From sequence record OZ035849: a stretch of 64,000 nt of DNA; one strand, 5' to 3'. Below are positions 78 through 1,963 of the stretch, one piece after another. The notes below the pieces were generated by a model, which saw nothing but the letters and a program-made list of their open reading frames with translations, had not been told where the DNA came from and searched no databases. The stretch's first letter is position 1. Every line of letters begins with the position of its first letter. The translations under genes were made by a program, and so were the position numbers. The DNA is from Escherichia phage vB_Eco_BGP.

Positions 78-1106
78 ATGTCATCAATACCTTGGATTGA
101 TAATGAGTTTGCATACCGTGCATTAGCTCATTTACCTAAATTCACACAAGTAAATAATAGTTCAACTTTTAAATTACGGTTTAGATGTCCTGTTTGCGGA
201 GATTCAAAAACCGACCAAAATAAAGCCCGTGGATGGTATTATGGTGATAATAATGAAGGAAATATTCATTGTTATAACTGTAACTATCATGCACCAATCG
301 GAATATATTTAAAGGAGTTTGAACCTGATTTATATCGTGAGTATATCTTTGAAATAAGAAAAGAAAAAGGTAAAAGTCGTCCAGTAGAAAAACCTAAAGA
401 ACTTCCTAAACAACCTGAGAAGAAAATAATTAAATCTCTTCCGTCATGTGTTAGATTAGATAAACTGGCGGAAGACCATCCAATTATAAAATATGTAAAA
501 GCTCGTTGTATTCCAAAGGATAAATGGAAATATCTTTGGTTTACAACCGAATGGCCTAAATTGGTTAATAGCATAGCACCGGGAACATATAAAAAGGAAA
601 TTTCTGAGCCTCGTCTTGTTATTCCAATTTATAATGCTAATGGAAAAGCTGAGTCGTTTCAAGGACGTGCATTAAAGAAAGATGCTCCTCAAAAATATAT
701 CACCATCAAAGCTTATCCTGAAGCAACAAAAATTTATGGAGTCGAACGAGTTAAAGATGGTGATGTATATGTTCTAGAAGGACCTATAGATTCACTTTTT
801 ATTGAAAATGGTATAGCTATTACGGGTGGTCAATTAGACCTAGAAGTTGTTCCATTTAAAGATAGACGAGTGTGGGTTTTAGATAATGAACCTCGTCACC
901 CTGACACTATCAAACGAATGACTAAATTAGTTGATGCAGGAGAAAGGGTTATGTTTTGGGATAAATCTCCCTGGAAATCAAAAGATGTCAATGATATGAT
1001 TAGAAAGGAAGGTGCAACCCCTGAACAAATTATGGAATATATGAAAAATAATATTGCCCAGGGGTTGATGGCTAAAATGCGGCTATCTAAATATGCCAAG
1101 ATTTAA
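78..1106 (+). CDS. 61: DNA primase gp61
   Basis: 342 aa; N-terminal Cys4 zinc ribbon (CPVCGDS...CYNC); matches T4 gp61 sequence and length from memory. Confidence 0.93.
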   Translation: MSSIPWIDNEFAYRALAHLPKFTQVNNSSTFKLRFRCPVCGDSKTDQNKARGWYYGDNNEGNIHCYNCNYHAPIGIYLKEFEPDLYREYIFEIRKEKGKSRPVEKPKELPKQPEKKIIKSLPSCVRLDKLAEDHPIIKYVKARCIPKDKWKYLWFTTEWPKLVNSIAPGTYKKEISEPRLVIPIYNANGKAESFQGRALKKDAPQKYITIKAYPEATKIYGVERVKDGDVYVLEGPIDSLFIENGIAITGGQLDLEVVPFKDRRVWVLDNEPRHPDTIKRMTKLVDAGERVMFWDKSPWKSKDVNDMIRKEGATPEQIMEYMKNNIAQGLMAKMRLSKYAKI

Positions 1107-1303
1107 ATTAACCCAACTAAAGCAAATGCTAAATCTACGAATGTATCAAGAGTAACTACTGGAATACTAACGCCATGAGCAATAGCAACTGGCGATAAAA
1201 CAAAATTCCAAAGTAAAATTCCTACCATAGCAGAAATAGTAAAAGCTATACGTTTTTTATTACCTTTTATGGCATTAACAAGTGCCATTAATTTTTGTAC
1301 CAT
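1103..1303 (-). CDS. hypothetical small membrane protein (66 aa)
   Basis: Minus-strand ORF, basic N-terminus then about 45 hydrophobic residues; strong SD AAGGAGG 4 nt before ATG; stop overlaps gene 61 stop; only ORF in a 296-bp gap. Confidence 0.45.
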   Translation of the reverse strand: MVQKLMALVNAIKGNKKRIAFTISAMVGILLWNFVLSPVAIAHGVSIPVVTLDTFVDLAFALVGLI

Positions 1304-1347
1304 ATGTCCTCCTTTAAATTAATATTTATCACAAATTTCATAAATTT

Positions 1348-1377
1348 GTTTACTTTCTCAGCTTGTTATGGTATTAT
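1348..1377 (+). promoter_or_regulatory. T4-type early promoter (GTTTAC -18 bp- TATTAT)
   Basis: GTTTAC at 1348-1353, TATTAT at 1372-1377, upstream of ORF 1403. Confidence 0.55.
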
Positions 1378-1402
1378 AAAATAAATTGCTGAGGATGATA
1401 TA

Positions 1403-1963
1403 ATGATTAATAAAATTGTGCATGAAATGGCTTTAAACGGAGATTCATATAAAATATCTGCCGTAGTTGAAAATTTCATACTTAATAAAGTAAAAGAATA
1501 TTTCACTGATTGTTCAGTTAGTTATCAAGAAAAAATGGTTTTAACCGATGATACTGAAAAATCAAATAATTTGTTTTGCTCTAATTTTATAACTAAGAAG
1601 CGTACTAGAAGATTTGATATTGTTATTTCTCGCAACGGTAAAAAGCATATAATTGAAATTAAACATCAAGTTGGTGGAGGTACAGCTATTGATTCGGTTG
1701 GAATATATTTAGAAGATAAAGAGAAATTAAAAGAATACACAAAAACTGAAAACCCCGTGTCATTGATGATATTAGATTTTTTGCCATGCGGATATTATCC
1801 ACGTAATAAATGGACAAAAAGAGAATCATTTACTGATAATCCAACTATCCAAGCAAGGTTTAATGAATATGCTAAATCACAAAACGTGTTAGTATTACTA
1901 TCAAATACATATGATGAAGAATTATATAATTCGTTTTTTGCTGCAATAAATGAGAGAATATAA
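1403..1963 (+). CDS. hypothetical protein with PD-(D/E)xK-like nuclease signature (186 aa)
   Basis: Motif [20 protein letters not shown] (D, 13 aa, E-x-K); SD GAGGA before ATG; stop overlaps dam start (TAATG). Confidence 0.6.

What the first reader, a model, noticed from the sequence alone, without database searches (positions are those of the whole stretch)
1103..1963. Two-gene insertion between primase gene 61 and dam: a nuclease-like ORF coupled to Dam plus a divergent small membrane protein
As I recall the T4 map, dam follows gene 61 directly. Here about 860 bp lie between them. A 186-aa ORF with its own early promoter carries a PD-(D/E)xK-like signature ([17 protein letters not shown]), and its stop codon overlaps the dam start (TAATG), which suggests co-translation with the methyltransferase. 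On the opposite strand a 66-aa two-helix hydrophobic protein has a near-perfect Shine-Dalgarno (AAGGAGG) and converges on the gene 61 stop. A nuclease-like gene coupled to an N6A methyltransferase has restriction-modification-like organisation; alternatives are a methyl-dependent nuclease, a toxin/immunity pair, or an anti-defence factor. I do not recognise either protein.
Basis: partly seen in the sequence, partly recalled or inferred. Interest (0 to 1): 0.8.

Follow-up and report, generated by a model that had tools for sequence, protein, structure and literature searches.

The report
Restriction-enzyme-like partner gene of T-even Dam
Just upstream of the well-known Dam DNA methylase gene, this T2-like phage carries an uncharacterised gene for a small restriction-endonuclease-like protein that always travels with Dam and that phage T4 has lost by deletion, which suggests the long-puzzling T-even Dam is the protective half of a phage-borne restriction-modification pair.

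Summary
The sequence features are real. The window is a T2-like Tequatrovirus: gene 61, a convergent 66-aa ORF (1103-1303, -), a 186-aa ORF "X" (1403-1963, +) whose stop overlaps the dam ATG, dam, then gene 56.

The family is tiny and was found only in T4-like phage sequence. In all 12 contexts examined, at three different genomic positions, a Dam methylase gene abuts or overlaps its 3' end. X never occurs without dam, but dam occurs without X.

"Two-gene insertion" is wrong. T4 and T6 both carry the 66-aa ORF (unannotated in the T4 reference). T4 lost X through a 540-bp deletion between 8-bp repeats. T6-type phages lack X and dam together.

Best reading (about 0.55): an early-expressed, translationally coupled type II restriction-modification-like cassette, probably GATC-specific. 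No activity has been tested. One GenBank record already labels X "putative DpnII restriction endonuclease"; I found no paper.

The parts
1347..1377 (+). Promoter-like site upstream of X, of the T4 early type: GTTTAC, 18 nt, then TATTAT preceded by TG.
   Evidence: One search reports TTTACT-17-TATTAT with a TG extension at 1349-1377; sequence. It lies inside the T4 deletion and inside the indel relative to T6. It is a consensus match only, and such matches are not enriched over shuffles.
1403..1963 (+). Gene X: a 186-aa PD-(D/E)xK protein that resembles a type II restriction endonuclease (phrog_8706).
1469..1663 (+). Predicted catalytic residues: E23 (1469-1471), D72 (1616-1618), E85 (1655-1657), K87 (1661-1663).
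   Evidence: These are invariant in 10 homologues down to 27% identity. In the model they sit on helix 15-33 and strands 67-77 and 80-88. Codons were checked.
1664..1696 (+). Invariant H88-Q89...G93-T-A-I-D-S98 motif at the start of helix 95-104, a candidate DNA-recognition element.
   Evidence: Invariance is shown and the position in the model. The role is inferred from position only. The resemblance to the EcoRI/MunI GNAxER-type motif is recalled from memory and was not tested.
1934..1939 (+). T6 homopolymer near the 3' end of X, a frameshift hot spot.
   Evidence: The run is T6 here, giving the intact 186-aa protein whose stop overlaps the dam ATG. It is T5 in T2 and in the T4 remnant, giving ...NSFLLQ* with a stop 13 nt before dam. 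It is T8 in KarlGJung.
1961..1965 (+). TAATG: the X stop codon overlaps the dam start codon (translational coupling).
   Evidence: The homologues show the same tightness: 0-nt gap (L008-12), 1-nt overlap (MX01, L029, L030), 4 nt (L007), 7 nt (Klebsiella phages), 20 nt (L014) and 35 nt (L013).
1963..2742 (+). dam: a D12-class N6-adenine DNA methyltransferase (T2/T4 Dam, GATC), proposed cognate modification enzyme.
   Evidence: Pfam PF02086 matches at 6.5e-51. The protein is 100% identical to T2 Dam. The T4 annotation reads 'produces N6-methyladenine in GATC sites (in modified or non-modified cytosine DNA)'.
1315..2762 (+). Extent of the X-dam cassette relative to the empty site of T6-type phages.
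   Evidence: blastn against T6: homology ends at window 1314 and resumes at 2763, and T6 has only 20 nt in between. T6 gene order is 61, small ORF, 56.
1328..1883 (.). 8-bp direct repeats ATCACAAA (1328-1335 and 1876-1883) that bound the 540-bp deletion seen in T4.
   Evidence: A second, independent deletion occurs in phage KarlGJung/Bas37 between GATGATAT repeats (1394-1401 and 1765-1772). It removes X residues 1-121 and keeps dam.
1103..1303 (-). Neighbour that is NOT part of the cassette: a conserved 66-aa hydrophobic protein gene (phrog_2024) on the opposite strand.
   Evidence: The ORF and its SD are shown. The gene is intact in T4 (unannotated in NC_000866) and in T6, and is conserved in MX01 and in metagenomic relatives. 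The region is found in 506 phage records against 183 for dam. AF2 gives helices at 2-13, 16-42 and 52-63, and hydropathy peaks at residues 17-43 and 49-66.

Best explanation
X and dam form a two-gene, type II restriction-modification-like cassette carried by virulent T-even-type phages.

Proposed mechanism:
- An early promoter drives a bicistronic X-dam mRNA, and the overlapping UAAUG ties Dam synthesis to X synthesis.
- X is a small Mg2+-dependent PD-(D/E)xK endonuclease. Its catalytic residues are E23, D72, E85 and K87, and it probably acts as a homodimer, like MunI.
- X cuts duplex DNA at a short site, most likely unmethylated GATC.
- Dam methylates the same site, including in hydroxymethylcytosine DNA, so the phage's own genome is immune. 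That genome is packaged already methylated and is re-methylated after replication.
- The Dam-methylated host chromosome would also be spared. The likely targets are therefore DNAs that lack GATC methylation in the infected cell, such as co-infecting or superinfecting phages (for example dam-less T6-type relatives) and other incoming DNA.
- Where X has been lost, as in T4, Dam survives as an orphan methylase.

What is shown: the gene structure, the nuclease fold, the conserved catalytic residues, the obligate X-to-Dam linkage, the asymmetric loss pattern, and purifying selection.

What is inferred: catalytic activity, GATC specificity, blockage by methylation, dimerisation, and the biological targets.
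For: 1. Fold and active site.
- The next matches are BstEII, PfoI, PspGI, Bse634I, BsoBI, NgoMIV, Cfr10I, AgeI, SgrAI and EcoRI. From my own knowledge, all of these leave 4-5-nt 5' overhangs, as DpnII/MboI do at ^GATC.
- Foldseek returns only PD-(D/E)xK nucleases at the top.
- E23, D72, E85 and K87 are invariant down to 27% identity.

2. Sequence-profile leads.
- Pfam DpnII (a GATC enzyme) scores E 0.0045 for X. It is hit by 4 of 10 family members, best 8.3e-5.
- PADLOC REase_II scores 9.1e-5, best 5.3e-6.

3. Obligate linkage.
- All 12 contexts examined have a D12 Dam gene abutting or overlapping the 3' end of X.
- This holds at three different genomic positions: 61/56 in Tequatrovirus, Dhakavirus and metagenomic relatives; denB/ndd in Klebsiella Jiaodavirus; and upstream of an rIIA-like gene in L014.
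- X and Dam divergences rank the lineages in the same order.

4. R-M-like asymmetry.
- dam occurs in 183 closely related records and X in about 154-163. X was never seen without dam.
- Two independent microhomology deletions removed the X catalytic core and kept dam.
- About 257 further T4-like phage records carry this Dam clade (<60% identity to the window Dam), while X homologues below 90% identity were found in only 10 records.

5. Selection. pN is well below pS in every pair (for example dN/dS 0.17 against MX01). X evolves faster than Dam, as restriction enzymes usually do.

6. GATC depletion.
- GATC is the most depleted 4-bp palindrome in the window, 70 observed against 209 expected.
- It is also depleted in every cassette-bearing lineage sampled.

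7. Relatives of Dam. The closest plasmid relatives of this Dam are methylases of AlwI- and FokI-type R-M systems (38-43% identity). Enterobacterial plasmid Dam homologues are 25-27% identical over about two thirds of the protein.
Against: - No activity, specificity or methylation sensitivity has been measured.
- Similarity to DpnII is below Pfam's gathering score (16.8 against 23 bits), and X is about 100 residues shorter than DpnII-family enzymes.
- No PDB sequence similarity was found.
- The enterobacterial hosts are Dam+ and the phage DNA carries glucosyl-hmC, which blocks most type II enzymes. The obvious R-M targets (host DNA, self DNA) would both be resistant, so the selective benefit is unclear.
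- GATC depletion is equally strong in T6, which lacks the cassette, so it is not specific evidence.
- X is lost readily (T4, KarlGJung) and is frameshifted at its C-terminus in T2, so it is dispensable in the laboratory.
- The record set is redundant, with many near-identical isolates, so 'never X without dam' rests on few independent lineages.
- The AF2 alignment was shallow (6 sequences).
Confidence: 0.55

Rival explanations
1. X is a modification-dependent nuclease (type IIM or type IV, working like DpnI). It would cut GATC only after Dam has methylated it, in cytosine-containing (host or foreign) DNA. The phage's own glucosyl-hmC DNA would be protected by its cytosine modification, and the phage Dam would serve to mark targets.
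For: - The same fold and linkage evidence applies.
- All lineages that carry X appear to be hmC-type phages: they encode dCTPase gene 56 or a DenB-like Endo IV next to the cassette.
- The host chromosome is already Dam-methylated, which would give such an enzyme an abundant target.
Against: - If the enzyme needed methylated sites, the Dam+ host would supply them without a phage Dam. Strict co-inheritance and translational coupling would then be unnecessary.
- Loss of dam should be as harmless as loss of X, yet only X losses are seen.
- X is a single 186-aa domain, of which 143 residues align to MunI. There is no room for a separate methyl-adenine-sensing winged-helix domain like that described for DpnI (domain knowledge from PMC11037411 abstract).
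- In Neisseria, the GmATC-cutting drg gene replaces dam rather than coexisting with it (PMC516771 abstract).
Confidence: 0.12
2. X is a nuclease whose site is unrelated to GATC. It could be a free-standing homing-type or mobility endonuclease, or a DNA-processing or repair nuclease. On this reading its adjacency to dam reflects co-mobilisation or shared early expression rather than a restriction/protection relationship.
For: - T-even genomes are full of free-standing selfish endonucleases that create presence/absence polymorphisms. The 56-soc neighbourhood holds segF in T4.
- The X-dam unit is a clean indel relative to T6 and sits at three different loci.
Against: - There is no similarity to GIY-YIG, HNH or LAGLIDADG homing families.
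- Homing endonucleases do not need, and are not normally linked to, a methylase. Here the linkage survives divergence to 27% identity and relocation to three loci, with start/stop overlap preserved.
- A site-specific homing enzyme would be expected at one target locus, not three.
Confidence: 0.15
3. X no longer cuts DNA. It would be a degenerate or repurposed restriction-enzyme fold acting as a DNA-binding regulator or accessory factor for dam expression or Dam activity.
For: - X is dispensable: it is deleted in T4 and KarlGJung and frameshifted in T2.
- It is very small for a restriction enzyme.
- No phenotype is known.
Against: - All four catalytic residues are invariant across the family, and the family is under purifying selection. 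Neither is expected once catalysis is lost.
- Controller proteins of R-M systems are small helix-turn-helix proteins, not PD-(D/E)xK folds (own knowledge).
Confidence: 0.08
4. X and the divergent 66-aa membrane protein form a toxin/immunity or two-gene accessory module. This was one of the first reader's alternatives.
For: The two genes are adjacent and divergently oriented in this window, with promoters and SD sequences in the 100-bp spacer.
Against: - The small ORF is conserved in T4, T6 and about 320 records that lack X.
- It is absent next to X in Klebsiella phages, where denB precedes X. No such ORF was called in the stretch upstream of X in L013 or L014, though those contigs begin only 68 and 140 nt upstream of X.
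Confidence: 0.02

Closest known systems
DpnII / MboI-type GATC restriction-modification systems (Pfam PF04556 REase plus a Dam-like D12 methylase such as DpnM)
   Same: - A PD-(D/E)xK endonuclease gene lies next to a D12-class GATC adenine methylase.
- X gives weak but repeated profile hits to the catalytic-core region of DpnII: profile positions 152-235 match X residues 28-113.
- One GenBank record already uses the label 'putative DpnII restriction endonuclease'.
   Different: - The score is below Pfam's threshold.
- X is 186 aa against a 278-position Pfam profile.
- There is no second, ssDNA methylase.
- The gene order is R then M with overlapping stop and start.
- The carrier is a strictly virulent phage with glucosyl-hmC DNA infecting Dam+ hosts.
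- Specificity is untested.
MunI / EcoRI-like small homodimeric type IIP restriction endonucleases
   Same: - X has the same alpha-beta-beta-beta-alpha-beta core, with E...D...ExK on equivalent elements.
   Different: - Sequence identity is only 12%.
- No sequence-level hit to any PDB chain was found.
- MunI and EcoRI recognise CAATTG and GAATTC, and their methylases are not Dam-family (own knowledge).
Virus-encoded R-M systems of chlorella viruses (e.g. the GATC-specific CviAI system) and of phage P1 (EcoP1I)
   Same: A virus carries both a restriction enzyme and the protecting methylase. From my own knowledge, the chlorella enzymes degrade unmethylated host DNA while methylated viral DNA is spared.
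   Different: - Here the host DNA is itself Dam-methylated, so host degradation is an unlikely role.
- The carrier is a T-even phage.
- No sequence relationship was tested. The comparison is from memory only.
T4 Dam as a solitary ('orphan') methyltransferase
   Same: The methylase is the same protein: 97-100% identical to T4 and T2 Dam.
   Different: - In this phage, in T2 and in about 150 database relatives, Dam is not solitary.
- T4's solitary state is secondary. The 3' 87 bp of X are still present upstream of T4 dam.

Membership tests
Type II restriction-modification system | Endonuclease with a PD-(D/E)xK (or other nuclease) catalytic motif, conserved among homologues | tested here: met
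   E23, D72, E85 and K87 are invariant in 10 sequences down to 27% identity.
Type II restriction-modification system | Restriction-endonuclease-like three-dimensional fold | tested here: met
   [not shown]
Type II restriction-modification system | Adjacent DNA methyltransferase gene, with linkage conserved in evolution | tested here: met
   Dam lies directly downstream in all 12 contexts, at three genomic locations.
Type II restriction-modification system | R is not found without M, whereas M can persist without R | tested here: met
   About 154-163 records have X, all with dam. Dam-only genomes arose by two independent X deletions. The sample is redundant.
Type II restriction-modification system | Site-specific cleavage that is blocked by the cognate methylation | not testable with these tools
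   This needs biochemistry or in vivo toxicity tests in dam+ and dam- cells.
DpnII restriction endonuclease family (Pfam PF04556) | Score at or above Pfam's gathering threshold (23 bits) | tested here: not met
   16.8 bits, E 0.0045 for X. Four of 10 family members hit at E <= 1, best 8.3e-5.
DpnII restriction endonuclease family (Pfam PF04556) | Full-length match to the 278-position Pfam profile | tested here: not met
   X is 186 aa, and only profile positions 152-235 are matched.
DpnII restriction endonuclease family (Pfam PF04556) | Cleavage of unmethylated GATC | not testable with these tools
   Inferred only from the Dam partner and the weak profile hit.
EcoRI/MunI-like type IIP endonucleases | Detectable sequence homology to solved members | tested here: not met
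   phmmer and a profile search of all PDB sequences gave no relevant hit. The similarity is structural only.
Modification-dependent GATC nucleases (DpnI-like) | Separate methyl-adenine-sensing winged-helix domain in addition to the catalytic domain | tested here: not met
   The model is a single domain, with 143 of 186 residues aligned to MunI. No winged-helix family appears in the Pfam scan.
Free-standing homing endonucleases of T-even phages (Seg GIY-YIG, Mob HNH) | GIY-YIG, HNH or LAGLIDADG catalytic domain | tested here: not met
   No such Pfam hit was found even at E <= 1.
Holin (a name given by one UniRef entry to a homologue of the 66-aa protein) | Membership of a curated holin family | tested here: not met
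   Pfam, NCBIfam and PADLOC give no hit, and PHROG 2024 has unknown function. The protein has one clear TM helix plus a short hydrophobic C-terminal helix.

The most novel reading that the evidence does not exclude
The X-Dam cassette is a phage-versus-phage weapon that also behaves as a selfish element.

- X can cut unmethylated GATC even in (glucosyl-)hydroxymethylcytosine DNA.
- A cell first infected by an X-Dam phage would therefore restrict superinfecting or co-infecting dam-less T-even relatives (T6-type).
- Repair of the breaks from the cassette-bearing genome would drive marker exclusion and spread of the cassette. A GATC lies about 70-90 bp from the empty site in T6.

If true, this would explain three things: why T-even Dam methylates hmC-DNA at all, why T4 dam mutants have no known phenotype (T4 has lost X), and why GATC is three-fold depleted across Tequatroviruses whether or not they carry the cassette.
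Probability: 0.2. Interest if true: 0.85.

Novelty: new member of a known kind. Interest (0 to 1): 0.62.

Why it matters
From my own knowledge, T2 and T4 Dam have been studied since the 1960s, yet their biological role is unsettled and dam mutants grow normally. If Dam in T2 and about 150 sequenced relatives is translationally coupled to a conserved restriction-enzyme-like gene, and T4's solitary Dam results from a visible 540-bp deletion, the question of what T-even Dam is for becomes directly testable. Dam may be the antidote half of a phage-borne restriction system.

The result would also add a compact (186 aa) and uncharacterised restriction-enzyme family, found so far only in T4-like phage sequence, and a possible mechanism of competition between related virulent phages. 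On the practical side, it flags two gaps in the T4 reference annotation: an unannotated 66-aa gene and a pseudogene remnant of X.

Tried and rejected
1. Toxin/immunity pairing with the 66-aa ORF: rejected on presence/absence.

2. 'Insertion relative to T4': rejected. T4 has a microhomology deletion.

3. Search for a DpnII-family seed sequence for a profile-profile test. I used tblastn of Dam against plasmids and inspected seven neighbourhoods. All were AlwI- or FokI-type type IIS systems, or had no annotated REase. No DpnII-family gene was obtained, so the hhalign test could not be run.

4. Search for distant relatives of X. A profile search of 1.84 billion representatives gave only 11 proteins, all phage-context or fragments. 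Word-indexed searches gave the same set. IMG/VR gave only 2 loci. P0008, P0010 and P0016 look like chimeric or repetitive assembly artefacts and were ignored.

5. The afdb50 fold library was unavailable.

6. I tested whether the small ORFs that overlap the dam start in KP15, RB43 and ECD7 are diverged X genes. hhalign probabilities were below 1%, so this was rejected.

7. Literature. No paper on this gene was found. The 1988 T2 dam sequencing paper is not held, and its GenBank record M22342 annotates only dam although it contains X.

8. Rfam scan of 900-3000: nothing meaningful.

9. GATC depletion as specific evidence for X: downgraded, because T6, which lacks the cassette, shows the same depletion.
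Full report
**What is in the window**

The first 3.4 kb of the window is 99.4% identical to Escherichia phages slur03 and BYEP02 and 97.5% identical to phage T2. The window therefore comes from a T2-like Tequatrovirus. ORF listing and direct reading give this layout:
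- gene 61 primase, 78-1106 (+)
- a 66-aa ORF, 1103-1303 (-), with AAAGGAGGACAT before its ATG and its stop overlapping the gene 61 stop
- a 99-bp spacer
- a 186-aa ORF, here called X, 1403-1963 (+)
- dam, 1963-2742 (+; Pfam D12 methyltransferase, 6.5e-51)
- gene 56 dCTPase

The X stop and the dam start share the sequence TAATG. A T4-early-type promoter-like site (GTTTAC, 18 nt, then TATTAT preceded by TG) lies at 1347-1377 (the scan reports TTTACT-17-TATTAT at 1349-1377). Such matches are no more frequent here than in shuffled AT-rich sequence, so I treat the promoter as plausible only.

**Comparison with T4, T2 and T6**

- In the T4 reference, 309 bp without annotation separate gene 61 from dam.
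- Aligning the window to T4 shows that these 309 bp consist of the small-ORF region (97% identical) joined to the last 87 bp of X.
- T4 lacks window 1336-1875, and the junction falls in an 8-bp direct repeat, ATCACAAA, present at 1328-1335 and 1876-1883.
- T4 therefore carries a microhomology deletion. It removed the X promoter and codons 1-158 and left the remnant "...[20 protein letters not shown]".
- The 66-aa ORF is intact in T4 (62 of 66 residues identical) but unannotated in NC_000866.
- T2 has X, annotated as a 181-aa hypothetical protein. A T5 run replaces the T6 run at 1934-1939, which changes the C-terminus and ends the ORF 13 nt before dam.
- T6 has the order gene 61, small ORF, gene 56, with neither X nor dam. 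Relative to T6 the indel is exactly window 1315-2762, that is promoter + X + dam.

Counts in the phage collection:

| Feature | Records |
|---|---|
| small-ORF region | 506 |
| dam | 183 |
| X (any match) | 163 |
| X (at least 80% of its length) | 154 |

There are thus three states: X + dam, dam alone, or neither. I saw no record with X but without dam. Phage KarlGJung (Bas37) has a second, independent deletion, between GATGATAT repeats. It removes X residues 1-121 and keeps dam.

**What X is**

- X belongs to PHROG 8706, of unknown function.
- Pfam gives sub-threshold hits to DpnII (E 0.0045, 16.8 bits against a cut-off of 23) and BanI.
- PADLOC gives "REase_II" at 9.1e-5.
- Across ten family members, four hit DpnII (best 8.3e-5) and three hit the PADLOC model (best 5.3e-6).
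- The family is very small. A full HMMER profile search of 1.84 billion representative proteins found 11 proteins, and the word-indexed searches found the same set.
- Homologues down to 27% identity keep these residues invariant: E23, D72, E85, K87, H88, Q89, G93-T-A-I-D-S98 and D125.
- An AlphaFold2 model (pLDDT 80, pTM 0.79) has the alpha-beta-beta-beta-alpha-beta order. E23 lies on the first long helix, D72 on the second strand, and E85-x-K87 on the third strand.
- Many further type II enzymes follow: BstEII, PfoI, PspGI, Bse634I, BsoBI, NgoMIV, Cfr10I, AgeI, SgrAI, EcoRI and EcoRII. Other PD-(D/E)xK nucleases such as Can2, McrC and Bax1 also appear.
- Foldseek agrees on the superfamily.

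Nonsynonymous divergence is well below synonymous divergence in every pairwise comparison (for example dN/dS 0.17 against MX01). X evolves faster than the adjacent Dam in every pair. The gene is maintained by selection in nature.

**Linkage to Dam**

Every X homologue whose context I could read is followed immediately by a D12-class Dam gene:

| Context | Junction between X and dam |
|---|---|
| this window and its close relatives | 1-nt overlap |
| MX01 (Dhakavirus) | 1-nt overlap |
| metagenomic contigs L008-L012 | 0-nt gap |
| L007 | 4-nt overlap |
| L029, L030 | 1-nt overlap |
| Klebsiella Jiaodavirus phages | 7-nt overlap |
| L013 (distant homologue) | 35-nt overlap |
| L014 (distant homologue) | 20-nt overlap |

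The pair sits at three different genomic positions:
- between gene 61 and gene 56
- between denB and ndd in the Klebsiella phages
- upstream of an rIIA-like gene in L014

The Klebsiella pair is 42% (X) and 61% (Dam) identical to the window pair. The two genes therefore move and diverge together.

The reverse does not hold. The same Dam clade (45-62% identity) is found alone in Slopekvirus, Pseudotevenvirus and Krischvirus phages at an nrdC-linked locus. There it is preceded by small ORFs that are unrelated to X by profile comparison.

The closest plasmid-borne relatives of this Dam are methylases of AlwI- and FokI-type restriction systems (38-43% identity). Enterobacterial plasmid Dam homologues are 25-27% identical over about two thirds of the protein.

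**Most likely mechanism**

Four observations fit a type II restriction-modification pair in which X is the endonuclease and Dam the protecting methylase:
- a conserved catalytic tetrad
- a fold that resembles a minimal restriction enzyme
- obligate, translationally coupled linkage to a site-specific methylase
- the asymmetry of loss (X lost, Dam kept, never the reverse)

GATC is the most probable site. Dam is a GATC enzyme (T4 annotation), and the only sequence-profile leads point to the GATC enzyme DpnII.

I put about 0.55 on [quoted passage not shown]. Activity, site, dimeric state and methylation sensitivity are all inferred.

**The biological problem with this reading**

- The hosts (E. 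coli, Shigella, Yersinia, Klebsiella) methylate GATC themselves.
- The phage DNA carries glucosyl-hydroxymethylcytosine.
- Neither the host chromosome nor the phage genome is therefore an obvious substrate.
- What remains is DNA that is unmethylated at GATC in the infected cell. This includes co-infecting or superinfecting phages, such as the dam-less T6-type relatives that share these hosts.
- The strict need for Dam suggests that X can threaten the phage's own (hm)C DNA. This is speculation.

**GATC depletion**

- GATC is by far the most depleted 4-bp palindrome in the window: 70 observed against 209 expected, O/E 0.34. The next most depleted is TCGA at 0.63.
- GATC is depleted in every cassette-bearing lineage sampled, with O/E 0.06-0.36 on short stretches.
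- The same depletion occurs in T6, O/E 0.35, so it is a trait of the group rather than of cassette carriers.
- By contrast, Slopekvirus KP15 is reported to have 1148 GATC sites in 174 kb (PMC3620542), which is not depleted.

**Rival readings**

- *Methyl-dependent (DpnI-like) nuclease that uses Dam marks on cytosine DNA, about 0.12.* This is not excluded. It fits poorly with three things: the need for a phage Dam in Dam+ hosts, the one-sided loss pattern, and the single-domain architecture.
- *Nuclease with a site unrelated to GATC, homing-like or DNA-processing, about 0.15.* This is weakened by linkage that survives relocation to three loci, and by the absence of any homing-endonuclease domain.
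- *Catalytically dead regulator, about 0.08.* This is weakened by the invariant catalytic residues and by purifying selection.
- *Toxin/immunity with the 66-aa protein, about 0.02.* This is contradicted by the distribution of the small ORF.

**The 66-aa ORF**

This looks like a real, conserved gene.
- It has homologues at 52-95% identity in many Tequatrovirus genomes and a diverged version in MX01 and in metagenomic relatives.
- It has a basic N-terminal helix, one long hydrophobic helix (residues 16-42) and a short hydrophobic C-terminal helix.
- No family assignment was found.
- It lies on the strand opposite to the early genes.
- A near-consensus late-promoter box (GATAAATA against TATAAATA, from memory) sits just upstream of its SD.
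- Its function is unknown, and it is independent of X-dam.

**Novelty and prior knowledge**

- Almost all records call X "hypothetical protein".
- One record (vB_EcoM_Shinka, QXV73102.1) annotates it as [quoted passage not shown]. The resemblance has therefore been noticed by an annotation pipeline or a submitter.
- I found no paper that describes the gene, its linkage to Dam, or its deletion in T4.
- The 1988 T2 dam paper could not be read. Its GenBank entry annotates only dam.
- I classify X as a new, uncharacterised member of a known kind (type II R-M), in an unusual carrier.

**Limits**

- Nothing here measures activity.
- The structural model rests on six sequences.
- The DpnII link is sub-threshold, and I could not run a profile-profile test for lack of a DpnII-family seed.
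- The database is dominated by near-identical isolates. The "never X without dam" statement therefore rests on roughly eight to ten independent lineages.

Noticed in passing
window 1-64000; T6 locus L028; loci L004, L006, L008, L014, L029: GATC is strongly under-represented: 70 observed against 209 expected in the window (O/E 0.34), making it the most avoided 4-bp palindrome. T6, which lacks X and dam, shows the same (O/E 0.35). Short stretches of other cassette-bearing lineages give O/E 0.06-0.36. The cause is unknown. It could be restriction pressure at GATC or host Dam/MutH effects.
   Followed up: partly
T4 NC_000866 17626-17934 (L003 4127-4435); window 1103-1303: The T4 reference genome leaves the 309-bp 61-dam spacer unannotated. 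The spacer contains an intact 66-aa conserved ORF (L003 4239-4439) and an 87-bp 3' remnant of X.
   Followed up: yes
window 1934-1939: This homopolymer T run is length-variable among phages: T6 here, T5 in T2 and T4, T8 in KarlGJung. It switches the X C-terminus and uncouples the X stop from the dam ATG. It may be a recurrent inactivation hot spot.
   Followed up: partly
window 1269-1288 (+): A terminator-like hairpin (ATGGCATTAACAAGTGCCAT followed by TAATTTTTGT) lies on the early strand just downstream of gene 61. It is embedded in the coding sequence of the antisense 66-aa ORF. Some GenBank records annotate a terminator here.
   Followed up: no
window 1963-2742; plasmid loci L015-L017, L024-L027: The nearest plasmid-borne relatives of T-even Dam (38-43% identity, full length) are methylases of AlwI- and FokI-type type IIS restriction systems from Firmicutes. 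Enterobacterial plasmid Dam homologues match at only 25-27% over two thirds of the protein.
   Followed up: partly
L031 (KP15), L032 (RB43), L033 (ECD7): In Slopekvirus, Pseudotevenvirus and Krischvirus the orthologous Dam sits at a different, conserved locus (small ORF, dam, nrdC, gene 49, nrdD). In each case an unrelated small ORF (81-143 aa) overlaps the dam start by 1-4 nt.
   Followed up: partly
T6 L018 2689-2704 vs window 1296-1306: In T6 the small ORF's first ATG is ATT, so the annotated protein starts five codons later (61 aa). The SD then lies unusually far from the start codon.
   Followed up: no
window 3321-3721: Downstream of gene 56 the window has two small ORFs (64 and 69 aa), as in T2 and T6, where T4 carries the homing endonuclease gene segF. 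This is another presence/absence polymorphism in the same neighbourhood.
   Followed up: no
T6 L018 2805; window 2832: A GATC site lies about 70-90 bp to the right of the cassette insertion point, inside the 5' end of gene 56, in both cassette-bearing and empty-site genomes. This is compatible with break-induced co-conversion of the cassette, though with sites about every 900 bp it could be chance.
   Followed up: no
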